Of a stretch of DNA of 64,000 nucleotides, positions 3,263 through 15,023 are shown one piece after another (position 1 is the first letter of the stretch; each line of letters begins with the position of its first letter). The notes under the pieces were generated by a model. The model did no database searches. It had not been told where the DNA came from and saw nothing but the letters and a program-made list of their open reading frames with translations. Position numbers and translations under genes: made by a program. Source of the stretch: a phage; the sequence record PV357172.2; one strand, written 5' to 3'.

Positions 3263-4050
3263 TAAATTAGGGAACAGCGAGCCGATTACGCTGAGTGCAG
3301 AATCCCAACCGGAGCGCATTGAATAGAGTCGGTGGGTTAGTTGTAAAACTAGTACACAGGGGGCGGCAATCCCGGTTAGTGGCTAGAACGTGTAAAATGA
3401 GGCGTCTGAAACCTCTCCCCTAAACTCTTCTCTAATTTATAAATAGTGGGGTGTGGAAATCACTTATGTAGTAACACTGCCGTCCTAGTATAATTGGTAT
3501 TATCAAGCCGTAACTGGTGGAAGATGTAGGTTCGAATCCTACGGTCGGTAAGAACTGGATAACTGATGCTTTTAACGTAAAAGCTTCCGAGGTTAGTTGC
3601 GCACTGCCTAAACCACGCGGTAGTTGGTTCCAGACTAACCAACCAGTCTGCTGAATAGTTTTATTACGATTTAACTATGCCCAGGCTAAAGAAGAACTTT
3701 AGAAGGTATTCTAGGATAGTGAAGTTCTTTCTCCATATCGGAGTAGTTTTTCAAGCTATCCACAAAGTGGGAAATGCTGACATGAGAGATGTCACTAATG
3801 GTGCACAATAGCACAGGTAATTCGCGATAACCCCTGTTGAGTAGCAGCAAAAGGCGGGAAGTCATGACCCCAAGCCTAACCGAGTCCTCAATATACCGCA
3901 GGACATAACCACTAAGTCCCCCTGACTTAAACTGGAAAATAATAGACGTTACTGTATTTTGTCTTGAAATACTTAATGAGTGAGACTTATGACTCTCCCG
4001 GTATCGTCTGTATTTTTAAGAGTTTTTACGAGAGTTCTTAAAAATACTTA
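3263..4050 (+). ncRNA. promoter-driven untranslated region upstream of tRNA-Arg; candidate structured RNA(s)
   Basis: About 790 nt between a consensus promoter and tRNA-Arg with no plausible ORF; contains one tRNA-like T-arm. Confidence 0.3.
3479..3550 (+). tRNA. tRNA-like element (T-arm and acceptor stem only)
   Basis: GTAGG-TTCGAAT-CCTAC T-arm with 6/7 acceptor pairing; D and anticodon arms weak. Confidence 0.25.
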
Positions 4051-4052
4051 AA

Positions 4053-4124
4053 CGGGGTGTAGTCTAAGGGAGAGGCAGGAGTCTTCTAAATTCCTTTATG
4101 CAGGTTCGAATCCTGTCACCTCGG
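4053..4124 (+). tRNA. tRNA-Arg (anticodon TCT)
   Basis: Acceptor CGGGGTG/CACCTCG, anticodon loop CTTCTAA, T-arm GCAGG-TTCGAAT-CCTGT, encoded CCA. Confidence 0.8.
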
Positions 4125-4161
4125 CCAATTTTATTAACTGTAGCTAAAACAAAGGAAATAT

Positions 4162-5109
4162 ATGTTTAATACTAAAAATATGAAAGAACTGACTTCTGAG
4201 CAGAAAGTAATTCGTACTATTAAACGTTGGGGTATTGGTGCTGTAGTTGGTTTAGCAGGTTTAATCCTAGCTTTTAATTCATATACTGTTGTTCAAGACG
4301 GTACTGTTAAAACCCAGACTTTCCTGGGTAAAGTTGACCCTAGCCCAGTATTACCCGGCTTTCATATTGTAAATCCTTTTGCTTCTTTCGATACTTTTAG
4401 TACTAAAGATATTGCCCTAAAATTAGATAAACTTCAGGTTCCTAGCCAGGATAAGTTTAAATCCACTGTTGACCTGACTGTTATGTTGCAGTTTGATGGT
4501 TCTAAGGCACCAATTAACCGTATTAACGCAGGTACTCAGGATCAGGCGTTAGACAAGTATGTAACTGAAAAATTACTGTCTACTATTCGTGAGTTTGGTA
4601 AGTCTGTACCTAAAGCACAAGATTTGTTTGATGCTAAAATTCAGGCTCAATTGCAAACTGCAATTCAACAGGAAGTTGAAGAGTATGCACGCCCATATGG
4701 TTACACAGTTAAGCAGGTATTCCTTCAGGATATTACTTTGCCACCGGTAATCATGGAACAGGTACAGAATACCAAAGTTCGTGAAGAGCAAGTTAATGCT
4801 GCGAAAGCTGAACTGGCCCGCGTTGAACAAGAAGCGCAGCAAAAGGTTAAACAAGCAGAAGCAGACCGTGAAGCTCGCAACAACCAAGCTATTGCTAATG
4901 AACGTGACGCAGATGCTAAACTGTACGCAGCTAAGAAAGAAGCTGAAGCTAACGCCGCATTGCAACGTACCATTACTCCTGAGATGATTCGCTGGAAGCA
5001 ACTGGAAGTTGAAATGCTTCGTGCTGAAAAATACCAAGGTGGTGTACCGCAAACAGTAGTGGGAACTGGTTACGATGGCCAGATGATCATGGATATGCGT
5101 AATAAGTAA
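4162..5109 (+). CDS. SPFH/band-7 (prohibitin-like) membrane protein
   Basis: N-terminal TM segment then long Ala/Glu/Gln-rich coiled coil; overall SPFH-like architecture. Confidence 0.55.
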   Translation: MFNTKNMKELTSEQKVIRTIKRWGIGAVVGLAGLILAFNSYTVVQDGTVKTQTFLGKVDPSPVLPGFHIVNPFASFDTFSTKDIALKLDKLQVPSQDKFKSTVDLTVMLQFDGSKAPINRINAGTQDQALDKYVTEKLLSTIREFGKSVPKAQDLFDAKIQAQLQTAIQQEVEEYARPYGYTVKQVFLQDITLPPVIMEQVQNTKVREEQVNAAKAELARVEQEAQQKVKQAEADREARNNQAIANERDADAKLYAAKKEAEANAALQRTITPEMIRWKQLEVEMLRAEKYQGGVPQTVVGTGYDGQMIMDMRNK

Positions 5110-5133
5110 TATCCGCATGTAATCTCTGAAGTA

Positions 5134-5168
5134 AGCCCTGTGTTCCCTGGAGAGCGCAGGGCTTTTCT
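5134..5168 (+). terminator. rho-independent terminator
   Basis: GCCCTG...CAGGGC hairpin followed by TTTT. Confidence 0.6.
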
Positions 5169-5314
5169 GTATTTAAGGCAAAAGAAAAAGCCCATAAGTT
5201 ATTCAACTAAGGTCTTTAGTATTTAATTCTTTAGAATCATATAATATTATTGCAGCAACAACGTGCTAACCTTAAGTGCCCTGCAATTTTCCTCTAAAAA
5301 GTTAAAAAATTCGA

Positions 5315-5343
5315 TTGCTTGAATGCTAAATTCTCTGTATAAT
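5315..5343 (+). promoter_or_regulatory. sigma70-like early promoter
   Basis: TTGCTT 5315-5320, TATAAT 5338-5343. Confidence 0.6.
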
Positions 5344-5373
5344 ATATTTATAAATTTGAGAGAGGAATCAAAT

Positions 5374-6429
5374 ATGATTAAGACTGGTCTAGTAATTGGT
5401 AAGTTCGCACCATTAACGCGTGGTCATATTAACCTAATAAACACAGCAGCAACTATGTGTGAACGAGTTATTGTTGTAGTTAGTCATGATAATCGTTGGC
5501 TGGATAAGCAGAACACACGTGATCAGGAAGTATTACAGTTAAAGAATCGACTTCGTTGGTTAGAACAAACTTACGCGGATATTGAGCACATTTCGGTAGA
5601 GTACATTATTGAAGATGATATTCCTGAATATCCGAATGGTTGGCCGGAATATGCTAGAATCCTTAATGAAAATTACGGACATTTGCCTGAGATCACCGTT
5701 TTCTCTAGCGAACTAGACTATGATGCAGAATATAAGAAATATCTGCCGAAGTTTGGTCATTATATTGTAGATTCTGATCGGACTCGTGTTCCAATCTCAG
5801 CTACAATGATTCGTAATGATCTTATGAAGTATTGGGAGTTTCTTCCTAGCTTAGTTCGTAAAGATTACGTGCGTAAGGTTGTAATCATTGGGACTGAAAG
5901 CTCGGGAAAGACTACTTTAACAAAATACCTTGCGAAGCTATACAACACTTCGTGGGTAGAAGAATATGGCCGAACGTATTGTGAAGTTGATCTAGTTGGT
6001 AACGAAAATCTACTTACCAGTGAAGATTACAGTAAAATTGCGTTCAGACACAAAGAGCTAGAGTTTGAAGCAGAACGTACTGCAAATAAGATCATGTTTG
6101 TGGATACAAATGCTTTTATTACTGAGTTCTACCACAGACTTTATGAACATAGTAAGAACCCTGTGGTTACAGCAATTGCAAAAGTAGAACATTACGATTT
6201 AGTAATTGTTCTAGCGCCTACTGTCAAGTGGGTAGATGATGATTTACGTATTAACTCCGATCGTTCAATTACTTCTGAACTGTTCGAGCAGATGAAGAAA
6301 GAATTTCCAAATCAGTTCCCTGAAGGGCGTACTGTTTACATCGACTCTCCGGACTACAAAGTTCGTATGGACGAAGCAGTAAACGCAGTAGACTGGCTGA
6401 TTCATCACTTTAACGTTGGAGAGTTTTAA
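5374..6429 (+). CDS. nadR: NadR-like NMN adenylyltransferase / ribosylnicotinamide kinase
   Basis: N-terminal nucleotidyltransferase motif (GKFAPLTRGHINLI) plus C-terminal Walker A (GTESSGKTT); ATG 5374 after SD AGAGGAA. Confidence 0.7.
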   Translation: MIKTGLVIGKFAPLTRGHINLINTAATMCERVIVVVSHDNRWLDKQNTRDQEVLQLKNRLRWLEQTYADIEHISVEYIIEDDIPEYPNGWPEYARILNENYGHLPEITVFSSELDYDAEYKKYLPKFGHYIVDSDRTRVPISATMIRNDLMKYWEFLPSLVRKDYVRKVVIIGTESSGKTTLTKYLAKLYNTSWVEEYGRTYCEVDLVGNENLLTSEDYSKIAFRHKELEFEAERTANKIMFVDTNAFITEFYHRLYEHSKNPVVTAIAKVEHYDLVIVLAPTVKWVDDDLRINSDRSITSELFEQMKKEFPNQFPEGRTVYIDSPDYKVRMDEAVNAVDWLIHHFNVGEF

Positions 6430-6430
6430 T

Positions 6431-7108
6431 ATGACTAACTATCTCGTAAATGACTTTAAAAACTGGAAACCTCTGGAATATCTGTGGCTGCTCATAGCGG
6501 TTGTCTTCATTAGTTTAGCAAACTATAATGGTACAGCTCTAGATTGGGCTACTGCAATAACCAATGTGGTTTGTGTTATTCTGGTTGCAAAAGGACGTGT
6601 TTCCAACTATATTTGGGGCTTAGTGGGTGTTCTTACATATGGTATTACAGCTTTAAACGCAGATCTTTATGGTAACGCTGCACTAAACCTGCTATACTAC
6701 GTTCCTATGCAGTTTTATGGAATGTACTTATGGCATAAAAATAAACCAAGTAATCTGCCAGACGTTCCAACTAAGGTTCTGACTAAAGCTCAGGCTTTAT
6801 TAACTCTTGGGATTCTAGCAGTAGCTACTCTAGGCTATGGCAGCTTCCTCGCTACCACAGCAGATCCGTTCCCAATGCTCGATGCATTTACTGCGGTTGG
6901 TAGTGTAATTGCTATGTGGCTTATGGTCAAGCAGTATGCTGAACAATGGCTAATCTGGATTGCCATTAATATTGGTACTGTATACATTTGGTTTGTAACT
7001 GCTCAGTCTACAGGTGCTTCTTATGCAATCCTAGCAATGTGGCTGGTATTCTTTGGTAACTCTGTACTTGGAGCCTATAAAGGGTACTTTGTACGCGTTA
7101 ACAAATAA
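6431..7108 (+). CDS. pnuC: PnuC-like nicotinamide riboside transporter
   Basis: About 225-aa polytopic membrane protein immediately after the NadR-like gene, Trp-rich helices as in PnuC. Confidence 0.6.
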   Translation: MTNYLVNDFKNWKPLEYLWLLIAVVFISLANYNGTALDWATAITNVVCVILVAKGRVSNYIWGLVGVLTYGITALNADLYGNAALNLLYYVPMQFYGMYLWHKNKPSNLPDVPTKVLTKAQALLTLGILAVATLGYGSFLATTADPFPMLDAFTAVGSVIAMWLMVKQYAEQWLIWIAINIGTVYIWFVTAQSTGASYAILAMWLVFFGNSVLGAYKGYFVRVNK

Positions 7109-7115
7109 AATAGTT

Positions 7116-7138
7116 ATAGCCCTCAAAGCGAGGGCTAT
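7116..7138 (+). terminator. terminator-like hairpin
   Basis: ATAGCCCTC-AAAGC-GAGGGCTAT hairpin after the PnuC-like gene. Confidence 0.45.
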
Positions 7139-7155
7139 TATCCAGAAAATTTCAC

Positions 7156-7184
7156 TTGCTAAATGCCGAGATTTTCTGTATAAT
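7156..7184 (+). promoter_or_regulatory. sigma70-like early promoter
   Basis: TTGCTA 7156-7161, TATAAT 7179-7184. Confidence 0.6.
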
Positions 7185-7198
7185 ATATTTATAAATTC

Positions 7199-7290
7199 GG
7201 AAGATTAACCCTAATTGGTAAGGGAGCATCTTGCTAAGTTGCCAGTAGCTGTGGAAACACGGTGTATCGGTTCAAGTCCGATATCTTCCT
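7199..7290 (+). tRNA. tRNA-Ser (GCT), long variable arm
   Basis: Perfect acceptor GGAAGAT/ATCTTCC, anticodon loop TTGCTAA, T-loop TTCAAGT, encoded CCA. Confidence 0.75.
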
Positions 7291-7298
7291 CCAAATTT

Positions 7299-7373
7299 GG
7301 TTCTCAAGCTCATTTGGTATGAGCCGTCGCCTCATAAGCGAAAGGTAGGTAGGTTCGAATCCTCCGGGAGCCA
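7299..7373 (+). tRNA. tRNA-Met/fMet/Ile2 (CAT)
   Basis: D-stem GCTC/GAGC, anticodon loop CTCATAA, T-loop TTCGAAT, encoded CCA. Confidence 0.7.
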
Positions 7374-7393
7374 CCAGATAACTAGGAGACTTT

Positions 7394-7582
7394 ATGTCAC
7401 GCTTTCACGAAATTAAGCAAGAACTGGAAGAACTCGCCTGTCCTGAATGCTTTGGGACAGGTGAATGGAATGATGCTGAACCCGGGGATACGCGGTTTAA
7501 CACTTACGTTTGCACTCACTGTGAAGGTACTGGTGTAAACCCTCTTTACACTATTTCTCTTTTTGTAGGGGTTGCTAAATAA
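7394..7582 (+). CDS. small zinc-ribbon protein (CPEC...CTHCEG)
   Basis: 62-aa ORF with two CxxC pairs and AGGAG SD. Confidence 0.5.
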   Translation: MSRFHEIKQELEELACPECFGTGEWNDAEPGDTRFNTYVCTHCEGTGVNPLYTISLFVGVAK

Positions 7583-7588
7583 TGCACT

Positions 7589-7936
7589 TTGAAGATGATG
7601 AAAAAAGAAGCGTTCTACACTGTCCCAGCAATTAATCTGCTCGGTACTGTACTATTTCAGATTAAGTTCTACCTGCGAGACGACTACACTGAAGTGGTAA
7701 ACGCTATTGTACCTGAGTTCTTCGTAAATAATTTCCAAAAGGACTTTAAGTTCTTTATTGATGATGTTTACGATGGTGTGGTTGATCCGGCAGTAGCTCC
7801 AGCTATATACAATGTATTTAATTCTCTGCCAGATCTAGATTTTGATCTAGGACTTATTGAGTCTGGTGAGATTATCTGGGCACTTAATGTTCCAGTGACT
7901 GGATTCCCTGGTTGGCTGCAAGGTTACGAACTCTAA
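7589..7936 (+). CDS. hypothetical protein (115 aa)
   Basis: Track ORF; alternative start codon; no domain recognised. Confidence 0.45.
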   Translation: MKMMKKEAFYTVPAINLLGTVLFQIKFYLRDDYTEVVNAIVPEFFVNNFQKDFKFFIDDVYDGVVDPAVAPAIYNVFNSLPDLDFDLGLIESGEIIWALNVPVTGFPGWLQGYEL

Positions 7937-7944
7937 CAAAATTT

Positions 7945-8027
7945 GGATCTGTGGTGGAATTGGCAATACACACCATGCTTAAAACGTGGCGCTTAAATGA
8001 TTGAGGGTTCGAGCCCCTCCAGATCCA
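7945..8027 (+). tRNA. tRNA-Leu (TAA), long variable arm
   Basis: Acceptor GGATCTG/CAGATCC, anticodon loop CTTAAAA, T-arm GAGGG-TTCGAGC-CCCTC, encoded CCA. Confidence 0.7.
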
Positions 8028-8182
8028 CCAAATTAAGGAAGTAAAAATGAAATCTATTAAGAAAGCACTGCGTAAATTTATGTATTGTCGTTTTCATAGC
8101 ATCAAGGCTTCAACTAATGGTACTACTTACGATCGCTATGATCCTAAGTTTGGCTTACATTCTAAATAACTGGAGAAAACAA

Positions 8183-8389
8183 ATGGCTAATCCTGAAATT
8201 ACGGCACAACGCTTTATGCTGAAAGGAATTATTGCTGAAGCAGGCATGACAGAAGAAGTTGCAGATTTTCAAAAGCAATTCCTCAATATTCTCACTCAAG
8301 CCAAAGAGCTAGGAGAGAAAGAACATGGCGCGGCTATTATGGCAATCACATTGGTTGGGCTTGATCTGGCTGAAGAATCAGGAGTTTAA
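8183..8389 (+). CDS. hypothetical protein
   Basis: ATG 8183 preceded by GGAG; in frame with track ORF 8117-8389. Confidence 0.45.
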   Translation: MANPEITAQRFMLKGIIAEAGMTEEVADFQKQFLNILTQAKELGEKEHGAAIMAITLVGLDLAEESGV

Positions 8390-8419
8390 CTCCTCCAAGC
8401 AGAAATTTTAAAAATGTAC

Positions 8420-8449
8420 TTGCTTTTTACTTAAGATTTCTGCTATAAT
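8420..8449 (+). promoter_or_regulatory. sigma70-like early promoter
   Basis: TTGCTT 8420-8425, TATAAT 8444-8449. Confidence 0.55.
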
Positions 8450-8478
8450 AGTTATATAAGTTGATGAGAGGAATCAGA

Positions 8479-8754
8479 ATGTTAAAACGTTTTGCAGCAA
8501 CTGGTATTGAAAGCTCAGTATGTAAATCCTGGGGTGGTTGGGAAGGTGAGATCGAGTGGCTTTATTTCTACAATGTAGAACTTCTTCCAGAGATCAAAGC
8601 TCAATGTATTGAGGCTGGTATGGCTCCTGATGCTACGGCTGATGTTGAAATCAGCATGAATAAGCTAGAGGGTCGAGTAGTCACTGTTACTGATGAAGGT
8701 GAAGAGGTATTCGAACTTCCATTCACTTTGAAAGTCACTCCTTCATTTGATTAA
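8479..8754 (+). CDS. hypothetical protein
   Basis: ATG 8479 after conserved GATGAGAGG leader; in frame with track ORF. Confidence 0.5.
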   Translation: MLKRFAATGIESSVCKSWGGWEGEIEWLYFYNVELLPEIKAQCIEAGMAPDATADVEISMNKLEGRVVTVTDEGEEVFELPFTLKVTPSFD

Positions 8755-8785
8755 CTGATACAGCACTGAGCAAGTTCTTTAAAAT

Positions 8786-8819
8786 TTGACTTGCTCAGTA
8801 CCTTAAAACTTGGTATAAT
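8786..8819 (+). promoter_or_regulatory. sigma70-like early promoter
   Basis: TTGACT/TTGCTC 8786-8796, TATAAT 8814-8819. Confidence 0.55.
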
Positions 8820-8889
8820 AGTTATCTAATTTGGAAACATATTTAAAAGTATTCAAATACTAGTTTAAACACTTTTAAATGTACATCGT

Positions 8890-8963
8890 TGGCAGAATGG
8901 CTATTGTAGCGGTCTGTAAATCCGTGCCCTTCGGGATTGGTGGTTCGAATCTTACACGGCCCG
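8890..8963 (+). tRNA. tRNA-like element with Tyr-type anticodon loop (CTGTAAA); possible pseudogene
   Basis: GGTTCGAATC T-loop and CCA end are present but acceptor and T-stems do not pair canonically. Confidence 0.2.
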
Positions 8964-9068
8964 CCAAATTCTGTGTAGAGTTAAGTAAACCGGTAGCCAA
9001 CCAGCTATCATTGCTGACATCGAATTCAGCCACAGATACCATTTTCATTAATAACTGAGGAAATAGAT

Positions 9069-9254
9069 ATGACAACTCGTGCAATTGCTCGACTAGAAGC
9101 TGATCGTGATAATCTGATTAATAATATTAAGGTTCGTGGTAATATTATTAAGGCTCTGAAAGCTGAACTTCTTGAAGAACTTCAAGGTCAAGTAGAGCGT
9201 CGTGAAGCTCTAAAAGAGGTTGAGGAAGCTATCGAAAAACTCAAAGCTGAGTAA
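9069..9254 (+). CDS. small coiled-coil protein (61 aa)
   Basis: Track ORF with GAGGAAATAG SD-like sequence. Confidence 0.45.
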   Translation: MTTRAIARLEADRDNLINNIKVRGNIIKALKAELLEELQGQVERREALKEVEEAIEKLKAE

Positions 9255-9257
9255 ATT

Positions 9258-9839
9258 ATGCACGGAATATCCTTACCAATTCCAGGGTTTGAGGAGTACT
9301 TAGTAAGTTTGGATGGGTTAGTATTTAGTATCAAATCAAACAAAATACTAACCCCAATAACCAGTAATTACGGATACTTATCTATACGTCTCCATAAAAA
9401 TGGTCAACAGAGAAATACCGGTGTACATAGGATTTTAGCATGTGCATTTAAGAAATTACCAAGTCTAGACTCTGAACTAGAAGTTGACCATATTAACACA
9501 GACATTACTTATTGGGGTCTTAATAACTTACAAGTGCTCACAAAAGAGCAGCATCTAGAAAAGACTTTAAAAGATAAAGGATTTAGTAAACTAAACCATG
9601 ATAATTGTTGTAAGGATTGTGGTAAAGCTATTTCTTTAAAAGCTGAAAAATGTCAGGAGTGCTCTTCACATAAACCAAAAGATATCTCTATAACTAAAGA
9701 AATAATCGAGGTTACAGTAAGAGAGCTAGGCTGGTCAGGTGCAGGGAGAAAGTTAAGTTATTCAGATAATGGGTTGCGTAAAAGATACACTTCTTTAGGA
9801 GGCAATCCTAAAGAACTTAAAAAGTTAAAGGTACTATAG
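9258..9839 (+). CDS. HNH homing endonuclease
   Basis: LEVDHINTD...NNLQVLTKEQH HNH motif plus C-terminal Cys-rich region; stop codon overlaps the start of tRNA-Asp. Confidence 0.8.
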   Translation: MHGISLPIPGFEEYLVSLDGLVFSIKSNKILTPITSNYGYLSIRLHKNGQQRNTGVHRILACAFKKLPSLDSELEVDHINTDITYWGLNNLQVLTKEQHLEKTLKDKGFSKLNHDNCCKDCGKAISLKAEKCQECSSHKPKDISITKEIIEVTVRELGWSGAGRKLSYSDNGLRKRYTSLGGNPKELKKLKVL

Positions 9840-9901
9840 TCTAACGGTTAGGATACTCCCCTGTCACGGGAGAGGTAGGGTTTCGATTACCCTTAGTACC
9901 G
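9830..9901 (+). tRNA. tRNA-Asp (GTC)
   Basis: Perfect acceptor GGTACTA/TAGTACC, anticodon stem CTCCC/GGGAG, loop CTGTCAC, T-arm AGGGT-TTCGATT-ACCCT, CCA. Confidence 0.85.
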
Positions 9902-9910
9902 CCAAATTAT

Positions 9911-9984
9911 ACATCCATAGCTCAATTGGTTAGAGCTACCGCCTCTTAAGCGGTAGGTTCTAGGTTCAAGTCCTAGTGGGTGTA
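9911..9984 (+). tRNA. tRNA-Lys (CTT)
   Basis: D-stem GCTC/GAGC, anticodon stem ACCGC/GCGGT, loop CTCTTAA, T-arm CTAGG-TTCAAGT-CCTAG, CCA. Confidence 0.85.
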
Positions 9985-10114
9985 CCAAACATCAGAGCAG
10001 CGTGATGTACTGCAAAGACCCAAAGTCCGGGGTGGACTTCTTGATTCAAAGGAGCAGGCACTAATTATCATTCTAGCGTGGTGGAGAGGGGACACCAGCT
10101 TGCCGAGGGTAGAA

Positions 10115-10191
10115 GCTCGTTCGATTCGAGTGAAAGAATGGTTCTCGTAAATCCGCACAAGTGATAGCAGGTTCAAGTCCTGCCTAGATTG
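10115..10191 (+). other. two tRNA-like T-arm elements without canonical acceptor stems
   Basis: GCTCG-TTCGATT-CGAGT and GCAGG-TTCAAGT-CCTGC; no complementary 5' acceptor found. Confidence 0.2.
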
Positions 10192-10200
10192 ACTTATTAT

Positions 10201-10271
10201 GCGTTCGTAGTTAAAAGGTATAATTTTTGGTTGCCAACCAGAAGTTGAGGGTTCGATTCCCTCCGACCGCA
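10201..10271 (+). tRNA. tRNA-Gly (GCC)
   Basis: Anticodon loop TTGCCAA, T-arm GAGGG-TTCGATT-CCCTC, acceptor 6/7 paired, CCA. Confidence 0.75.
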
Positions 10272-10527
10272 CCAAATTTAGGTTTCTGCTTCCTAGAGAA
10301 CGGACTCCTAGATAAACAAGGCGATGAGTTTCCGGCCGGTTCTAGTCGCTGAAAATCCTCCCGACCAGGTAGGTGTAAGTAAATGAAAGTTTACTTATTG
10401 AGTAGGTTCCGATAGACCGGCGGGTCTATTCTGGCATTTAAGAGAGGTCTCGCAAACTTCTTTGTCAGCCGTGGGGTTGGTAGCCTCCAGGTGGCCTACA
10501 CAATAAGTAAATTTATTAAAAATTCAT

Positions 10528-10556
10528 TTGCTATTCTGCTTAATTCTCTGTATAAT
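10528..10556 (+). promoter_or_regulatory. sigma70-like early promoter
   Basis: TTGCTA 10528-10533, TATAAT 10551-10556. Confidence 0.6.
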
Positions 10557-10587
10557 ATATTTTATAAAGTGAGTTAACAAAAATTAA

Positions 10588-10660
10588 CAGTGCGTAGCGC
10601 AGTTGGTAGCGTGGGAGCCTTGGGTGCTTCGGGTCGCAGGTTCGAGTCCTGCCGCACTGA
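10588..10660 (+). tRNA. tRNA-Pro (TGG)
   Basis: Perfect acceptor CAGTGCG/CGCACTG, anticodon loop CTTGGGT, T-arm GCAGG-TTCGAGT-CCTGC, CCA. Confidence 0.85.
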
Positions 10661-10669
10661 CCAAACAAT

Positions 10670-10744
10670 TGCGGGTTAGATCTCTGGTAGAGATCGCTAG
10701 TCTCATAAGCTAGAAAGAGGTAGGTTCGATTCCTGCACCCGCTT
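10670..10744 (+). tRNA. tRNA with CAT anticodon (Met/fMet/Ile2)
   Basis: Anticodon stem CTAGT/GCTAG, loop CTCATAA, T-loop TTCGATT, 1:72 U-U mismatch, CCA. Confidence 0.75.
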
Positions 10745-10921
10745 CCATTTTAATAGAGGATTTCGAAATGAAAGTATTTCGATTAGTAGTAAGTGACAAA
10801 CGGTTAGGTAAGAATACATCAAAATCCTTACTTGCTCATTATGGTAAAAATTGGGATGAAGTAATGGCAGAGTTTAATACTAATCACCCTTACTTGAAAG
10901 TTCACTCTATTAAGGAAGTTT

Positions 10922-11395
10922 ATGCTTATTAACAGGGTGCTTCAAGCTCTAGATCTTCCAGAGCTCTTTACTATTACCGACCCCTTAATACATCGGTATA
11001 TGGAAAAGTATAATGAAATCTCTGGTAAAAAAGGGAAACTAAAATCCTCAGAATTTAAGTTCTGTTATAGAATGGCAGCATTAAACCTCTTAAAGTACAA
11101 GAGGGAGCATAAAATCCCTATAACAGAAGGATTTGTCTATGTAATAGGTAGTCCAGCATGGCCTGGACTATATAAGATAGGTATGACAGTAGATGTGAAT
11201 GAAAGACTGTCTAGTTATCAAACATATTCGCCTTATCGTGATTACAAGTTATACCATTTCAGATTCTCCTCGGACAAGAGAAGAACTGAAAAAGCATTAC
11301 ATAACCTTCTGAAGGACTACAAAGTATCAGGAGAATGGTTTGAAGTACCTCTGTTAGACGCCTTCAAACTATTAGTAGAAAATTTGGATTGCTAA
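10922..11395 (+). CDS. GIY-YIG-like (T5orf172-domain) homing endonuclease
   Basis: GFVYVIGS...YKIGMT...ERLSSY...EWFEV matches the T5orf172 pattern; stop overlaps tRNA-Lys start. Confidence 0.65.
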   Translation: MLINRVLQALDLPELFTITDPLIHRYMEKYNEISGKKGKLKSSEFKFCYRMAALNLLKYKREHKIPITEGFVYVIGSPAWPGLYKIGMTVDVNERLSSYQTYSPYRDYKLYHFRFSSDKRRTEKALHNLLKDYKVSGEWFEVPLLDAFKLLVENLDC

Positions 11396-11460
11396 CTCAA
11401 CTGGATAAGAGTACCGGACCTTTAATCCGTCAGTTCTGGGTTCGAATCCCAGGCAATCCA
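11386..11460 (+). tRNA. tRNA-Lys (TTT)
   Basis: Perfect acceptor GGATTGC/GCAATCC, D-stem ACTC/GAGT, loop CCTTTAA (unusual C33), T-arm CTGGG-TTCGAAT-CCCAG, CCA. Confidence 0.75.
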
Positions 11461-11481
11461 CCAATTTCAAGAAAAACTCAG

Positions 11482-11511
11482 TTGCTTGATGCTTAATTTC
11501 TTGTTATAATA
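11482..11511 (+). promoter_or_regulatory. sigma70-like early promoter
   Basis: TTGCTT 11482-11487, TATAAT 11506-11511. Confidence 0.55.
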
Positions 11512-11748
11512 TTTATATAAATTGATGAGGAGAAATCCTCATCATAGTTCACTAAGGTATTAGCTCGACCTAGGACTGGCTGCCAAAAAGCACGATCCCT
11601 ACGATTTGGGAGAAGTTCTAGATTAGTCCACTAGATTCAGCGGCAACTGAATAGTGTATCGGTTTTGCGAGATGACGCGGTTCCTTCCGCTCGAAGCGAA
11701 GGTGCTGTAGTTACGCCGAGCTAATAGCCTTAGTAAACTAAGGAATTT

Positions 11749-11819
11749 GGGGATATAGTTTAATGGTAGAACATCTGCTTTGCACGCAGAAGACGAGGGT
11801 TCAACTCCCTCTTTCTCCA
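11749..11819 (+). tRNA. tRNA-Ala (TGC)
   Basis: Anticodon stem TCTGC/GCAGA, loop TTTGCAC, T-arm GAGGG-TTCAACT-CCCTC, CCA. Confidence 0.75.
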
Positions 11820-11827
11820 CCAAATTT

Positions 11828-11909
11828 GGGGCTATGCTGGAACTGGTAGACAATACGGCCTTAGATTCCGTAGCTTAAATGCGTGGGAGTTCGAGTCTCC
11901 CTAGCCCCA
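11828..11909 (+). tRNA. tRNA-Leu (TAG), long variable arm
   Basis: Perfect acceptor GGGGCTA/TAGCCCC, anticodon TAG in the loop, T-arm GGGAG-TTCGAGT-CTCCC, CCA. Confidence 0.65.
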
Positions 11910-11928
11910 CCAACTTATAGGGTAATGT

Positions 11929-12513
11929 ATGCAGTTTGTACCAATAAAAGATGCACCAGGGTATTTAGTAAATGAAACAGGGGATGTGTTATCTACATTT
12001 ACTAATAAAATCTTATCAAGATATATAGTTGATGGGTACCCTGCTGTAAAATTACAGATAAATGGTAAGCAAACTTCGGTACTTATACACCGAATTATTT
12101 CTCATGTATTTGGGGACTTATATAATCTATTTGACCCTGAATTAGAAGTAGATCACAAGGATAGAGATAGGCTGAATCTATCTAAAGATAATCTTCAAGT
12201 TTTATCAAAAATAGAACATCAGAAGAAAACTAATAAAGATAATGGATGGTCTGATAGTAGAGTACCTTGCCCCTTATGTGGAAATCTAATGCTTCAGAGA
12301 TCAGTAACATGTACAAATTGTAAGCCAAAACCTACAGGAAAGTTAATAAAACCAGAATTGTCCTTAGAAGACATAACTGAAAAGGTTTTATTAATGGGGT
12401 GGGTTAAGGCAGCTAAAGATCTAGAAGTATCAGAGTCCACTTTACGTAGACGATATACTAAACTAACCGGATTAAGCCCGAAAGTATTAACAGAACAACG
12501 GAAAAGCAAATAG
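11929..12513 (+). CDS. HNH homing endonuclease
   Basis: HRIISHVFG...LEVDHKDRDRLNLSKDNLQVL HNH motif plus CxxC pairs; 3' end overlaps tRNA-Ser. Confidence 0.8.
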   Translation: MQFVPIKDAPGYLVNETGDVLSTFTNKILSRYIVDGYPAVKLQINGKQTSVLIHRIISHVFGDLYNLFDPELEVDHKDRDRLNLSKDNLQVLSKIEHQKKTNKDNGWSDSRVPCPLCGNLMLQRSVTCTNCKPKPTGKLIKPELSLEDITEKVLLMGWVKAAKDLEVSESTLRRRYTKLTGLSPKVLTEQRKSK

Positions 12514-12590
12514 ACTGGTGACTAAACCCGATTGGAAATCGGTTGAGTGGTAGCAATACCGCCTTATGGGTTCAACTCCCATCTTTTCCG
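12500..12590 (+). tRNA. tRNA-Ser (GGA), long variable arm
   Basis: Perfect acceptor GGAAAAG/CTTTTCC, anticodon loop TTGGAAA, T-arm ATGGG-TTCAACT-CCCAT, CCA. Confidence 0.7.
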
Positions 12591-12605
12591 CCAAACAATT
12601 TATAT

Positions 12606-12697
12606 GGTAGGTCAATCCAATGGCTGGCGCTGGACTCCGACTTGAAATCGGTTGATCGTAGTGATACGGTGTAAGGGTTCGATCCCCTTACCTACCT
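12606..12697 (+). tRNA. tRNA-Ser (TGA), long variable arm
   Basis: Perfect acceptor GGTAGGT/ACCTACC, anticodon loop CTTGAAA, T-arm AAGGG-TTCGATC-CCCTT, CCA. Confidence 0.7.
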
Positions 12698-12712
12698 CCA
12701 AATCTTGAAGTA

Positions 12713-12837
12713 TGCCGGAATCGGTAGACGGGGCTGCCTAAAAGGTTTATAGGGAACATCCACTCCCTGCAACATACCTCATAAAGCGGCTGAGATAAAT
12801 GGTCTATCTCGTGAAGGTTCAAGTCCTTCTGCTTCTT
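12713..12837 (+). other. tRNA-like element (type-II D-arm and a T-arm, no canonical acceptor stem)
   Basis: GGAATCGGTAGACGG D-arm-like segment and GAAGG-TTCAAGT-CCTTC T-arm separated by about 80 nt. Confidence 0.2.
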
Positions 12838-13066
12838 GATACATCTATGGCTCAAAGTGTAACGGTGCTATTTGATGCTCTTGGTAAGACTTCCCCGACA
12901 TGCGTTCGGGAGTAAGCTGCTAAGACTAGAGTAGAAGAGTTTCTGAGAGCCGCCACAATTGAAAATTCGTACTCGTCTTGAGCTGCGTGCAATAGGAGAT
13001 AACTTGATTAGTATTCTAGAACATGCTAATTGAGGATGGTTTCGCTAACCCTGCGAGTTTTCAATT

Positions 13067-13140
13067 GTGGCTATATCATAATTGGTTAATGATCCTGATT
13101 GTGAATCAGGCCTATGTGGATTCGAATTCCACTAGCCACC
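13067..13140 (+). tRNA. tRNA-His (GTG)
   Basis: Perfect acceptor GTGGCTA/TAGCCAC, anticodon stem CCTGA/TCAGG, loop TTGTGAA, T-arm GTGGA-TTCGAAT-TCCAC, CCA. Confidence 0.8.
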
Positions 13141-13168
13141 CCAAATTAACTTAAATAGGAAATAAAAT

Positions 13169-13369
13169 ATGGCTGATTTCTGCAAGCAATGCTCCCTTGA
13201 TATGTGGGGCAGAGATACTGGTGACTTATCTGGTCTGATTACAGAAGCCGAAGTCAAAGAAGGTTATAGTGCAGTTGTGATTTGTGAAGGCTGCGGTGTT
13301 ATCCGTGTAGACCACACCGGTAAGCGTTTGGAAGAACCAGTTCCAATTGCGCAAGTTCCTGTAGAATAA
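13169..13369 (+). CDS. small zinc-ribbon protein (66 aa)
   Basis: CKQC ... CEGCG Cys pairs. Confidence 0.5.
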   Translation: MADFCKQCSLDMWGRDTGDLSGLITEAEVKEGYSAVVICEGCGVIRVDHTGKRLEEPVPIAQVPVE

Positions 13370-13377
13370 AAAATTAT

Positions 13378-13450
13378 TGGAGTGTAGCTCAACTGGCAGA
13401 GCGACGGTTTCTGACACCGTAGGTTTCTAGTTCGATCCTAGACATTCCAG
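13378..13450 (+). tRNA. tRNA-Gln (CTG)
   Basis: D-stem GCTC/GAGC, anticodon stem ACGGT/ACCGT, loop TTCTGAC, T-arm TCTAG-TTCGATC-CTAGA, CCA. Confidence 0.85.
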
Positions 13451-13459
13451 CCAAACAAT

Positions 13460-13534
13460 TGGGGATTAGCTTAGCTTGGCCTAAAGCTTCGGCCTTTGAA
13501 GTCGAGATCATTGGTTCAAATCCAATATCCCCTG
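13460..13534 (+). tRNA. tRNA-Gln (TTG)
   Basis: Anticodon stem TCGGC/GTCGA, loop CTTTGAA, T-arm ATTGG-TTCAAAT-CCAAT, 1:72 U-U, CCA. Confidence 0.75.
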
Positions 13535-13545
13535 CCAAACAATAA

Positions 13546-13618
13546 GCGATTAAGCACACGGGTTGTGCCGCAGGCCTTCCAAGCCCCGCTGAGTAGGGTT
13601 CGATTCCCTCTAGCCGCT
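13546..13618 (+). tRNA. tRNA, anticodon uncertain (possibly Trp CCA)
   Basis: Good T-arm (TTCGATT), acceptor with one mismatch and CCA end; anticodon stem pairs poorly. Confidence 0.5.
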
Positions 13619-13638
13619 CCAACTTTAAGGAAACATTT

Positions 13639-13860
13639 ATGCACGTTTTTGAGTTTCGTGATAAAAGTAACAATAAACGAGTTATTGTTATTGGAGAAAC
13701 ATACCTAGCATACGAACAAACTGATGGCTCTGTTATCTTGAATGATGAGAAAGCAAATTTTAGCTTTTATCCAGAAGAACCTTATGAAGAGTTTCGTACT
13801 AAGTTTCTTTTACCAGACTGGCTAGCAGTAGCCGAGCAACGAGAATCCGAAGATGGCTGA
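13639..13860 (+). CDS. hypothetical protein (73 aa)
   Basis: Track ORF with AAGGAAA SD-like sequence. Confidence 0.5.
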   Translation: MHVFEFRDKSNNKRVIVIGETYLAYEQTDGSVILNDEKANFSFYPEEPYEEFRTKFLLPDWLAVAEQRESEDG

Positions 13861-14025
13861 TAACCTAAAATTAAGGGTTGACAAACAAAAGAAATACGTT
13901 GAGGTTGAATTAGGCGAAGAACGCTTAAAGCTAACTTTCGAGTTTCTTCAGCAGTTGGCTATGACAGTCATGACTGATAAGTCTCCTGTTATTGAAAAAG
14001 AAATCCCGTTGAAATAGGAAGCAAC

Positions 14026-14418
14026 ATGGAGTTTACTTGTTTAAATTGCGGAATCACAAAACCTAAAAGTAGGGGTTCCGCAGGTAAGTATTGTGGTGCT
14101 GCTTGTCAGCAGGAGTACCAGACAAAGCAAAAAGTATTAAAGTGGCTGGCAGGTGAAGAACCTGGTTATACTGGTAAAGCTGCACAATTAAAACCTTTTG
14201 TTAGGAAGTGGCTGTGGGATACTCGTGGTACTGCTTGTGAAGTATGTGGTTGGGATGGGAAACATCCAATTGACGGAGCAGTTTTAACTGAGGTAGATCA
14301 TATAGATGGAGATGCAACTAACTGTTCTCCAGAAAATCTAAAGATTCTCTGCCCTAACTGTCACTCTATGACACCTACGCATAGGGCCAGAAATAGAGTT
14401 TCAACAAGACAACGATAG
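14026..14418 (+). CDS. HNH endonuclease (zinc-binding)
   Basis: VDHIDGD...NLKILCPNCH HNH motif plus N-terminal CxxC pairs; stop TAG supplies G1 of tRNA-Thr. Confidence 0.75.
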   Translation: MEFTCLNCGITKPKSRGSAGKYCGAACQQEYQTKQKVLKWLAGEEPGYTGKAAQLKPFVRKWLWDTRGTACEVCGWDGKHPIDGAVLTEVDHIDGDATNCSPENLKILCPNCHSMTPTHRARNRVSTRQR

Positions 14419-14489
14419 CTCTTAAAGCATTGCTGGCGATGCAACGGTCTTGTAAACCGTGGAACCGGGTTCGATTCCTGGTGGGAGCA
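14418..14489 (+). tRNA. tRNA-Thr (TGT)
   Basis: Acceptor GCTCTTA/TGGGAGC, anticodon stem ACGGT/ACCGT, loop CTTGTAA, T-arm CCGGG-TTCGATT-CCTGG, CCA. Confidence 0.8.
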
Positions 14490-14507
14490 CCAAAATTAAA
14501 AAATTCA

Positions 14508-14537
14508 TTTGCCTTCTCTCTTATTTCTTGTTATAAT
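14508..14537 (+). promoter_or_regulatory. sigma70-like early promoter
   Basis: TTTGCC -35-like 14508-14513, TATAAT 14532-14537. Confidence 0.5.
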
Positions 14538-14567
14538 ATTTATATAAATTAATGAGAGGGAAACCAA

Positions 14568-14861
14568 ATGAAACGTTATCTTTCTGTCGTGTTCCAAACT
14601 GGTGGTCAACGCTACACTTATGAATTTCCTGAGTCCTGGAAAATTAAAGAAGGTGATCAAGTTGTTGTATTAACACCTCGTGAAGGCTTCAAAGTAGTAA
14701 CGGTTAAACAAGTATTTCCAAAAGATCACGAACCATCTAAGGCTATTCAGTACAAGATGATTCATGGTCTGGTACGAAAAGTACCTAGAACAGAAGTCGA
14801 AGTAGATAAAACTGGGGAAGCTAAATACCAGTATACCTCTTACTTAGATGAAATGATGTAA
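14568..14861 (+). CDS. hypothetical protein (97 aa)
   Basis: Track ORF after promoter and GAGAGGGAAACC leader. Confidence 0.5.
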   Translation: MKRYLSVVFQTGGQRYTYEFPESWKIKEGDQVVVLTPREGFKVVTVKQVFPKDHEPSKAIQYKMIHGLVRKVPRTEVEVDKTGEAKYQYTSYLDEMM

Positions 14862-14862
14862 T

Positions 14863-14935
14863 GCTCTGATAGTTCAACAGGTTAGAACAGACGACCGATA
14901 ATCGTCAAATCTTGGTTCGATCCCAAGTCGGAGTA
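14863..14935 (+). tRNA. tRNA-Ile (GAT)
   Basis: Anticodon stem GACGA/TCGTC, loop CCGATAA, T-arm CTTGG-TTCGATC-CCAAG, CCA. Confidence 0.8.
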
Positions 14936-14944
14936 CCAAATTAT

Positions 14945-15017
14945 AGTTAGTTGGCAGAGTGGTTATGCACCTCCTTCATACGGAGCGACTACAGTGGTTC
15001 AAATCCACTACTAACTA
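14945..15017 (+). tRNA. tRNA with CAT anticodon (Met/fMet/Ile2)
   Basis: Perfect acceptor AGTTAGT/ACTAACT, loop TTCATAC, T-arm AGTGG-TTCAAAT-CCACT, CCA. Confidence 0.8.
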
Positions 15018-15023
15018 CCAAAC

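What the first reader, a model, noticed from the sequence alone, without database searches (positions are those of the whole stretch)
5374..7108. Phage-encoded NadR-like enzyme plus PnuC-like transporter (NAD salvage pair)
A bifunctional NMN adenylyltransferase/ribosylnicotinamide kinase-like gene is immediately followed by a PnuC-like transporter, under their own early promoter. Together they could import nicotinamide riboside and rebuild NAD+. This could support replication, or counter NAD+-depleting defence systems.
Basis: partly seen in the sequence, partly recalled or inferred. Interest (0 to 1): 0.6.

Follow-up and report, generated by a model that had tools for sequence, protein, structure and literature searches.

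The report
Known phage NAD-rebuilding gene pair (NARP3)
This T5-like phage carries a two-gene unit (a nicotinamide riboside importer plus an enzyme that turns the riboside into NAD+) that is almost identical to the "NARP3" pair shown in August 2026 to rebuild NAD+ and defeat NAD-destroying bacterial defences, so the finding is real and correctly read but already known.

Summary
A 351-aa NadR-like enzyme (5374-6429) has an NMN adenylyltransferase domain and a ribosylnicotinamide kinase domain but no HTH domain. One base after its stop codon begins a 225-aa PnuC-type transporter (6431-7108). Upstream lie a strong terminator and a promoter about 97% identical to the annotated T5 promoter P15a.

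The window is a T5-like phage (Demerecviridae). The two proteins are 98.9% and 97.8% identical to Bas30_86 and Bas30_87 of Escherichia phage TrudiRoth. Those proteins are the published NARP3 system (Sci Adv, 12 Aug 2026, PMC13464706; PDB 9X6H/9X6F). All 23 residues named in that paper's structural, docking and mutational analysis are conserved here.

In that work, Bas30_87 binds nicotinamide riboside and is needed for NR-dependent rescue. Bas30_86 converts NR to NMN and then to NAD+. Together they restore NAD+ and phage plating against Sir2-HerA and DSR1.

The pair had been predicted earlier (Iyer 2022; Osterman 2024). It is annotated in many phage records, and 203 records hold the complete 1735-nt cassette.

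Verdict: interpretation supported, already known, low interest. Two things remain open. No deletion has been tested in a native T5-like phage. It is also unknown whether the pair mainly feeds the phage's own NAD+ consumers.

The parts
5133..5164 (+). Intrinsic terminator ending the upstream SPFH/Band-7 'lipoprotein' gene (4162-5109); upstream boundary of the unit
   Evidence: 13-bp stem followed by a U-rich tail. RNA fold -22.9 kcal/mol, z -5.2, 0 of 200 shuffles as stable. The stem keeps pairing through compensatory changes relative to Bas30.
5299..5373 (+). Promoter plus 5'UTR plus RBS of the operon. A-tract 5302-5309, -35 TTGCTT 5315-5320, 17-nt spacer, -10 TATAAT 5338-5343, RBS GAGAGG 5360-5365. 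Homologue of T5 promoter P15a.
   Evidence: Sequence read. One mismatch to the 75-nt annotated T5 'promoter P15a' (NC_005859 37802-37876). Identical to Bas30 from column 197 to the ATG, while the coding DNA differs by 3.8%. The 21-mer TGTATAATATATTTATAAATT occurs 11 times in the window against 0.03 expected. Not shown experimentally in this phage.
5374..6429 (+). NadR-like bifunctional enzyme, 351 aa. NMN adenylyltransferase domain (about residues 1-166; T15-R-G-H18, I141-SATMIR147) and ribosylnicotinamide kinase domain (about 167-351; Walker A G173-TESSGKT180, IMFVDT 240-245). No HTH domain. Orthologue of Bas30_86.
   Evidence: Pfam and NCBIfam hits. PHROG 3462, E 9e-152. 347/351 identical to PDB 9X6F/9X6H, E 6e-239. 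All 20 residues named in the paper are conserved. Motif positions. 15 synonymous against 4 non-synonymous codon differences from Bas30.
6418..6433 (+). Gene junction: RBS GGAG 6418-6421 inside the end of nadR, stop TAA 6427-6429, one base, then ATG 6431-6433. This layout suggests translational coupling.
   Evidence: Sequence read. Same geometry in Bas30 (70858/70860). The 1735-nt cassette aligns as one piece of the same length in every full-length record listed.
6431..7108 (+). PnuC-type nicotinamide riboside transporter, 225 aa, multi-pass membrane protein. Orthologue of Bas30_87.
   Evidence: Pfam NMN_transporter 148 bits and TIGR01528 118 bits. PHROG 1880, E 1e-73. Neisseria mucosa PnuC 4QTN, E 2.6e-32. 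220/225 identical to Bas30_87 with N45, Q94 and N180 conserved; 36 synonymous against 5 non-synonymous codon differences. Several hydrophobic stretches long enough to span a membrane.
7116..7138 (+). Hairpin just after pnuC. It has a weak U-tail on the + strand, so it may be a partial terminator or a 3'-end stabiliser. Downstream boundary of the unit.
   Evidence: 9-bp stem in the RNA fold, -14.8 kcal/mol, z -4.8; the pattern scan counts 10 pairs. The stem is conserved and the loop differs in Bas30.
7156..7197 (+). Next promoter (TTGCTA-17-TATAAT; resembles T5 P15b). It drives tRNA-Ser(GCT) at 7199-7293 and downstream genes, and is not part of the NAD unit.

Best explanation
This is a copy of the NARP3 NAD+ reconstitution operon of T5-like phages. 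A strong sigma-70 promoter of the T5 early type (P15a homologue) transcribes a bicistronic mRNA. The second gene product, a PnuC-type membrane protein, lets external nicotinamide riboside (NR) into the cell. The first gene product, an HTH-less NadR-like enzyme, phosphorylates NR to NMN with ATP in its C-terminal kinase domain, and this step also traps the NR in the cell. Its N-terminal domain then adenylylates NMN to NAD+. The result is an NAD+ supply that depends on external NR rather than on the host's regulated pathways. It can refill the pool when NADase defences (Sir2-HerA, DSR1) empty it, so phage replication can proceed. Shown here: the genes, domains, motifs, operon layout and near-identity to the characterised proteins. 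Shown elsewhere, for the Bas30 orthologues: NR binding, both enzyme steps, NAD+ restoration, rescue of phage plating and dependence on NR. Inferred: that the proteins of this phage behave the same way, that the promoter is active early, and that the unit matters during native infection.
For: Domain and family hits are above curated cutoffs. NadR is 347/351 identical to the crystallised Bas30_86 (PDB 9X6F/9X6H). PnuC is 220/225 identical to Bas30_87. All 20 NadR residues and 3 PnuC residues cited in the paper are conserved, and synonymous changes predominate (15:4 and 36:5). Catalytic motifs TRGH, ISATMIR and Walker A GTESSGKT are present. The paper reports the following. Bas30_87 binds NR with Kd about 0.66 uM, and N45A, Q94A and N180A each abolish binding and rescue. 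Bas30_86 converts NR to NMN to NAD+ in vitro. Mutations in either domain impair NAD+ restoration and phage rescue. Only co-expression of both genes raises plating 10^3- to 10^4-fold against Sir2-HerA and restores NAD+/NADH, and the pair also counters DSR1. Rescue depends on NR with EC50 3.6-5.6 uM. The operon layout is identical to Bas30. The promoter is homologous to annotated T5 P15a. The cassette is complete in 203 phage records.
Against: Nothing in the sequence argues against it. The limits are these. All functional data come from plasmid expression with unrelated phages, and no T5-like phage lacking the pair has been tested. NARP3 does not recycle the NADase products (ADPR and nicotinamide), so it needs external NR, and NR availability in natural habitats is unknown. 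The 4 and 5 substitutions relative to Bas30 are untested, though none falls on a cited residue. Phage T5 itself has no nadR or pnuC in this slot, so the pair is not part of the conserved T5 core.
Confidence: 0.88

Rival explanations
1. The pair is mainly a metabolic booster and only incidentally an anti-defence device. It would top up NAD+ for the phage's own NAD+-consuming enzymes and for a host whose metabolism is being shut down, whether or not a defence system is present. This reading can coexist with the main one.
For: The near-identical phage Bas30 is annotated as carrying a split NAD-dependent DNA ligase (bas30_0038/0039) and a Sir2-like protein (bas30_0054). PHROGs files both families under 'moron, auxiliary metabolic gene and host takeover'. 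The native role is untested. From general knowledge, each NAD+-dependent ligation consumes one NAD+.
Against: The T5 stretch examined (26-48 kb) has no nadR or pnuC in this slot, so the pair looks accessory rather than part of the conserved core. Whether T5 carries the same ligase was not checked here. The ligase and Sir2 genes are not in this window, so their presence in this phage is unverified. A strong anti-defence phenotype was demonstrated.
Confidence: 0.3
2. The transporter carries something other than NR (other Pnu-family members carry thiamine, riboflavin or deoxynucleosides), or the enzyme works only as an NMN adenylyltransferase, so the pair is not an NR-to-NAD+ route.
For: From general knowledge, the Pnu family includes non-NR transporters. 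Identity to Neisseria PnuC is modest.
Against: The TIGR01528 PnuC equivalog scores 118 bits against a cutoff of 42. The 97.8%-identical Bas30_87 binds NR, and its three binding residues are conserved here. Both activities were measured for the 98.9%-identical enzyme. The kinase-domain Walker A motif and residues E230 and D275 are conserved.
Confidence: 0.03
3. The genes are decaying passengers picked up from a host and have no role in this phage.
For: The E. coli host already has nadR and pnuC at separate loci. The cassette is absent from this slot in T5.
Against: Both frames are intact. Synonymous changes predominate. The 1735-nt cassette is complete in 203 records. It has a dedicated strong promoter and coupled start/stop signals.
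Confidence: 0.01

Closest known systems
NARP3 (Bas30_86 / Bas30_87 of Escherichia phage TrudiRoth; Yan et al., Sci Adv 2026, PMC13464706; PDB 9X6H, 9X6F)
   Same: Same two genes in the same order with the same 1-nt junction, the same lengths (351 and 225 aa) and an identical promoter/5'UTR. Identity is 98.9% and 97.8% at protein level and 96.2% at DNA level. All cited functional residues are conserved. Same genomic slot in a collinear T5-like genome.
   Different: There are 4 and 5 amino-acid substitutions (NadR V109I, L160V, V271E, D290G; PnuC L21F, F188L, F208L, V212I, L213M; window residue first). The surrounding genome is only 73-99% identical, so this is a different phage. Bas30 has an extra 98-aa ORF (bas30_0088) between pnuC and tRNA-Ser that this window lacks.
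Bacterial NadR (E. coli/Salmonella trifunctional NadR, PDB 8X7F; Haemophilus influenzae NadR, PDB 1LW7)
   Same: Same NMNAT plus RNK two-domain core and motifs. E 6e-53 to 1LW7 and 9e-49 to 8X7F. NCBIfam NadR PRK08099 is above cutoff.
   Different: The N-terminal HTH repressor domain is missing: the match covers profile positions 65-407 of 411. The stricter TIGR01526 equivalog_domain model scores 266 bits, below its 341-bit cutoff. In E. coli, nadR and pnuC lie at separate loci, whereas here they form one operon.
PnuC nicotinamide riboside transporter (Neisseria mucosa PnuC, PDB 4QTN)
   Same: Pfam and TIGRFAM membership. The alignment covers residues 9-215 with the conserved YVPxQF and WIxxNI motifs.
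   Different: Shorter (225 against 244 aa). According to the paper, three rather than four NR-coordinating residues are used.
NARP1 (Adps + Namat) and NARP2 (Nampt + Nmnat) phage NAD+ reconstitution pathways (Osterman et al. 2024, bioRxiv 10.1101/2024.02.11.579819); KVP40 NadV/NatV salvage
   Same: Same outcome: a phage-encoded two-gene route that rebuilds NAD+ and defeats NAD+-depleting defences.
   Different: Different chemistry and substrates. NARP1 reuses ADPR and nicotinamide. NARP2 starts from nicotinamide and PRPP. This pair needs imported NR and includes a transporter.

Membership tests
NARP3 (phage NadR-like + PnuC-like NAD+ reconstitution operon) | NadR-like enzyme with NMNAT and RNK domains and no HTH domain | tested here: met
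   Pfam CTP_transf_like and AAA_28. The NCBIfam NadR profile is matched from position 65 onward only. 98.9% identical to Bas30_86.
NARP3 (phage NadR-like + PnuC-like NAD+ reconstitution operon) | PnuC-type transporter gene immediately downstream in the same operon | tested here: met
   1-nt gap, same strand, no promoter or terminator between the genes. 97.8% identical to Bas30_87.
NARP3 (phage NadR-like + PnuC-like NAD+ reconstitution operon) | Residues named in the paper's structural, docking and mutational analysis (NadR K10, F11, S37, E80, P84, G89, F110, S112, D115, V139, I141, E230, D275 and others; PnuC N45, Q94, N180) | tested here: met
   All 20 and 3 listed positions are identical.
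NARP3 (phage NadR-like + PnuC-like NAD+ reconstitution operon) | Carried by a phage of enterobacteria | tested here: met
   The window is collinear with Epseptimavirus TrudiRoth. Best matches are Citrobacter, Escherichia and Salmonella T5-like phages.
NARP3 (phage NadR-like + PnuC-like NAD+ reconstitution operon) | NR import, NR to NMN to NAD+ conversion, and restoration of NAD+ and phage plating against NADase defences | not testable with these tools
   Shown for the Bas30 orthologues only.
Canonical trifunctional NadR (enterobacterial) | N-terminal HTH DNA-binding (repressor) domain | tested here: not met
   The profile match starts at position 65 of 411 and the protein starts directly with the NMNAT motif GKFAPLTRGH. 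Records that call this gene 'NadR transcriptional regulator' are therefore misnaming it.
Canonical trifunctional NadR (enterobacterial) | NMNAT (H/T)xGH and ISxTxxR motifs; RNK Walker A | tested here: met
   TRGH 15-18, ISATMIR 141-147, GTESSGKT 173-180.
PnuC / NMN_transporter family (PF04973, TIGR01528) | Profile score above the curated cutoff and a multi-pass membrane topology | tested here: met
   148 bits against 27.3 and 118 bits against 42.45. Hydrophobic stretches along the whole protein. Homology to 4QTN.
T5 early promoter family | -35 TTGCTT/A, 17-nt spacer, -10 TATAAT, upstream A-tract and the conserved downstream ATAAATT box | tested here: met
   One mismatch to the annotated T5 promoter P15a, and the same pattern as 11 other annotated T5 promoters. 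Activity and timing were not tested.

The most novel reading that the evidence does not exclude
In native T5-like infection the pair may not serve mainly as an anti-defence device. It could be one of several interchangeable cargoes plugged in behind a conserved promoter/5'UTR cassette (P15a), whose homology with T5 ends at the start codon. Its main selective value could be to feed the phage's own NAD+ consumers (split NAD-dependent ligase, Sir2-like protein) when external nicotinamide riboside is available. On this reading, NR availability in the habitat, rather than host defence content alone, would decide which T5-like phages keep it.
Probability: 0.2. Interest if true: 0.4.

Novelty: already known. 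Interest (0 to 1): 0.15.

Why it matters
NAD+ depletion is a common bacterial anti-phage strategy, and phage routes that rebuild NAD+ shape which defences work against which phages. This window adds one more near-identical copy of a pathway that was predicted in 2022-2024 and characterised biochemically, structurally and genetically in 2026. It does not change what is known. What remains useful is narrower. Any T5-like phage carrying the pair could supply the native-context deletion experiment that the published study could not do. The sharp promoter/cargo boundary relative to T5 also marks this position as a variable slot that may be worth surveying for other accessory genes.

Tried and rejected
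1. The longer ORF starting at ATG 5323 was rejected. That ATG lies inside the promoter spacer, has no RBS, and the crystallised orthologue starts at the 5374 equivalent.

2. TTG 6416 as the pnuC start was judged less likely than ATG 6431. GGAG lies 9 nt upstream of the ATG, the Bas30 annotation uses the ATG, and the paper's residue numbering (N45, Q94, N180) fits only the ATG start.

3. A riboswitch or other known RNA in the leader or flanks was looked for. Rfam at E<=0.1 over 3500-9500 found only the four tRNAs, and the inferred 5'UTR is only roughly 25 nt long.

4. I asked whether the phage's NAD+ consumers (ligase A/B, Sir2-like) lie in this window. tblastn found no hits, so they lie outside it, if this phage has them at all.

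5. I asked whether the upstream SPFH/Band-7 'lipoprotein' gene belongs to the unit. It is separated by a strong terminator and is also present in T5, which has no nadR or pnuC in this slot, so it is not part of the unit.

6. Heavy searches (structure prediction, large protein-database searches, metagenome scans) were deliberately not run. A crystal structure of a 98.9%-identical protein and a full functional study already exist, so these searches could not have changed the verdict.

7. One literature query failed on a term-length rule and was repeated in other forms. No NARP3 paper other than PMC13464706 is in the library.

Full report
**What is in the sequence**

The first ORF, read from ATG 5374 to the stop at 6429, encodes 351 aa.
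- It hits Pfam CTP_transf_like (residues 7-147, 31 bits, cutoff 21) and AAA_28 (residues 168-314, 108.5 bits, cutoff 27).
- It hits the NCBIfam NadR model PRK08099 at 244 bits against a cutoff of 201.
- That match covers profile positions 65-407 only, so the N-terminal HTH repressor domain of enterobacterial NadR is absent.
- The mechanical ORF list starts this frame at ATG 5323. That ATG lies between the -35 and -10 hexamers of the promoter and has no ribosome-binding site.
- ATG 5374 is preceded by GAGAGG at 5360-5365.

The second ORF ends at 7108.
- Its mechanical start is TTG 6416. ATG 6431 is the better start: GGAG lies at 6418-6421, and the nadR stop TAA (6427-6429) sits one base before the ATG.
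- From ATG 6431 it encodes 225 aa.
- It hits Pfam NMN_transporter (148 bits, cutoff 27.3) and the PnuC equivalog TIGR01528 (118 bits, cutoff 42.45).
- It has hydrophobic stretches along its whole length.
- It aligns over residues 9-215 with the solved Neisseria mucosa PnuC, 4QTN (E 2.6e-32).
- PHROGs assigns the two proteins to 'nicotinamide-nucleotide adenylyltransferase' (E 9e-152) and 'PnuC-like nicotinamide mononucleotide transport' (E 1e-73).

**Operon anatomy**

Upstream:
- The preceding gene (4162-5109) encodes an SPFH/Band-7 protein with an N-terminal membrane segment.
- It ends in a strong intrinsic terminator at 5133-5164: 13-bp stem, U-rich tail, -22.9 kcal/mol, z -5.2.

Promoter:
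- It consists of an A-tract, TTGCTT (5315-5320), a 17-nt spacer and TATAAT (5338-5343).
- The simple promoter scan picked a slightly offset, weaker pairing. The assignment made here rests on homology.
- The 75 nt up to the RBS differ at one base from the feature annotated 'promoter P15a' in the T5 reference genome. They follow the same pattern as a dozen other annotated T5 promoters.
- The 21-mer covering the -10 and its downstream box occurs 11 times in the window, against 0.03 expected by chance.

Downstream:
- A 9-bp hairpin (7116-7138, -14.8 kcal/mol, z -4.8) follows pnuC. It has a poor U-tail, so it may terminate only partly.
- A second promoter of the same family follows (7156-7184; resembles T5 P15b) and drives tRNA-Ser(GCT) and the tRNA cluster.

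No Rfam family other than tRNA is detected in 3500-9500, so there is no sign of a riboswitch.

'Early' itself is an inference from position in the T5-type tRNA region.

**What the window is**

The first 31 kb are collinear with positions 64.1-98.3 kb of Escherichia phage TrudiRoth (BASEL Bas30, Epseptimavirus, Demerecviridae), at 73-99% identity by segment. The best overall matches are Citrobacter, Escherichia and Salmonella T5-like phages, and none is identical. The window also holds 19 tRNA genes interspersed with small ORFs and HNH endonuclease genes, as in T5.

**Comparison with what is known**

[quoted passage not shown] NARP3 is defined there as exactly this pair in phage TrudiRoth: Bas30_86 (HTH-less NadR-like) and Bas30_87 (PnuC-like).

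The paper reports:
- Neither gene alone rescues infection, but the operon raises T7 and lambda plating 10^3- to 10^4-fold on Sir2-HerA hosts. It restores NAD+ and NADH, and it also counters DSR1.
- Bas30_87 is a trimer that binds NR with Kd about 0.66 uM. N45A, Q94A and N180A each abolish binding and rescue.
- Bas30_86 converts NR to NMN and NMN to NAD+ with ATP in vitro.
- Crystal structures 9X6H (apo) and 9X6F (with NAD+) were solved.
- Mutations in either domain impair NAD+ regeneration.
- Rescue needs external NR, with EC50 3.6-5.6 uM.

The window's NadR-like protein matches the 9X6F/9X6H chain at E 6e-239. A direct comparison with the Bas30 record gives:
- 347/351 identical residues for the enzyme and 220/225 for the transporter.
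- Identical gene lengths and the same 1-nt junction.
- 96.2% DNA identity.
- All 20 enzyme residues and all 3 transporter residues named in the paper conserved.
- Mostly synonymous codon differences: 15:4 for nadR and 36:5 for pnuC.

The classical motifs are present: TRGH, ISATMIR and Walker A GTESSGKT.

The pair had been predicted earlier. The discussion and Fig. S3 of Osterman et al. 2024 describe phage NadR genes in an operon with PnuC as a likely further NAD+ reconstitution pathway, and list the BASEL phages that carry it. They cite the survey of Iyer et al. 2022. Many GenBank and RefSeq phage records already name both genes. Some call the enzyme 'NadR transcriptional regulator', which is wrong because the HTH domain is missing. 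The coding cassette is present in full in 203 phage records, and every full-length hit listed aligns as a single 1735-nt piece.

**How it most likely works**

The P15a-type promoter gives a bicistronic transcript. PnuC admits NR, and the kinase domain of the enzyme traps it as NMN. The adenylyltransferase domain then makes NAD+. The pathway is independent of the host's NadR-repressor control and of the NADase products. The pathway steps are shown for the Bas30 proteins and inferred here from near-identity.

The role in natural infection is not shown. The published authors state that they could not test the native phage.

A non-exclusive rival is that the pair mainly supplies the phage's own NAD+ consumers. 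Bas30 is annotated with a split NAD-dependent DNA ligase and a Sir2-like protein. These genes are not in this window, and T5 has no nadR or pnuC in this slot.

**Side observation: a variable slot**

Homology between this window and T5 runs from about 40 nt upstream of the -35 hexamer through the 5'UTR and RBS, and ends at the ATG. In T5 the same promoter drives T5.076, a Toprim-domain protein. Three ORFs with no Pfam match (T5.077-079) lie next to it on the other strand. The position between the SPFH gene and tRNA-Ser(GCU) is therefore a variable slot behind a conserved expression cassette.

Bas30 carries one more small ORF (bas30_0088), bracketed by two copies of the promoter, and this window lacks it. 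This pattern is consistent with gain and loss by recombination between promoter repeats. I did not pursue it further.

**Verdict**

- The unit is a member of NARP3 by every feature testable here.
- It is already known, so interest is low.

Noticed in passing
window 5270-5376 compared with L005 (T5 NC_005859 37802-37876 and flanks): Promoter, 5'UTR, RBS and ATG are almost identical to T5 promoter P15a, but homology stops at the start codon. T5 has T5.076 (Toprim domain) there, T5.077-079 (no Pfam hit) on the other strand, and no nadR or pnuC. The slot between the SPFH gene and tRNA-Ser(GCU) looks like a swappable cargo position behind a conserved expression cassette.
   Followed up: partly
window 7109-7200 compared with L003 13539-13995 (Bas30): Bas30 has an extra 98-aa ORF (bas30_0088, hydrophobic signal-peptide-like N-terminus, no Pfam hit) bracketed by two copies of the promoter. 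The window has one promoter and no such ORF, which is consistent with gain or loss by recombination between promoter repeats.
   Followed up: partly
window 1215, 2566, 3248, 5336, 7177, 16476, 18601, 23142, 26113, 26621 (+) and 44321 (-): The 21-mer TGTATAATATATTTATAAATT (up to 3 mismatches) occurs 11 times against 0.03 expected. It is the -10 plus downstream box of the T5 early-type promoter family. Ten of the 11 copies are on the + strand.
   Followed up: partly
GenBank OR847496.1 and MG065642.1 (hits H26/H98 and H110): A 2.7-kb record labelled 'Listeria phage LM 4-11-1' is the closest match to this cassette (99.2%). A 113-kb record labelled 'Campylobacter phage A148' also carries it. Both are T5-like enterobacterial phage sequences, so the host labels are probably errors or contamination.
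   Followed up: no
window 4162-5109 (+): A 315-aa SPFH/Band-7 protein with an N-terminal membrane segment (PHROG 200 'lipoprotein'; homologue of T5.080) lies just upstream and is separated from the pair by a terminator. It is conserved in T5, which lacks the NAD pair in this slot, so it is probably unrelated to it. Its function is unknown.
   Followed up: partly
window 9258-9839 (+) and tRNA-Asp 9830-9904: An HNH homing-endonuclease-like ORF overlaps the start of tRNA-Asp by 10 nt, the same arrangement as bas30_0109/0110. The tRNA cluster (19 tRNAs, 4053-15020) is interspersed with such endonuclease genes.
   Followed up: no
window 7394-7582 (+): A 62-aa ORF with two CxxC pairs gives weak sub-threshold hits to DnaJ_CXXCXGXG and Anti-TRAP zinc-finger models. 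It follows tRNA-Met directly and has a good RBS (AGGAG).
   Followed up: no
window 7299-7376 (+): The tRNA called tRNA-Met(CAT) next to tRNA-Ser(GCT) occupies the position of T5 tRNA-Ile2(CAU), so it is probably an isoleucine tRNA read after lysidine modification, not a methionine tRNA.
   Followed up: no
window 5133-5164 compared with L003 (Bas30) equivalent: The terminator stem upstream of the operon differs between the two phages by changes on both arms that keep the pairing (AAGCCCTGTG...CGCAGGGCTT against AAGCCCGCG...CGCGGGCTT). This supports a functional hairpin.
   Followed up: partly
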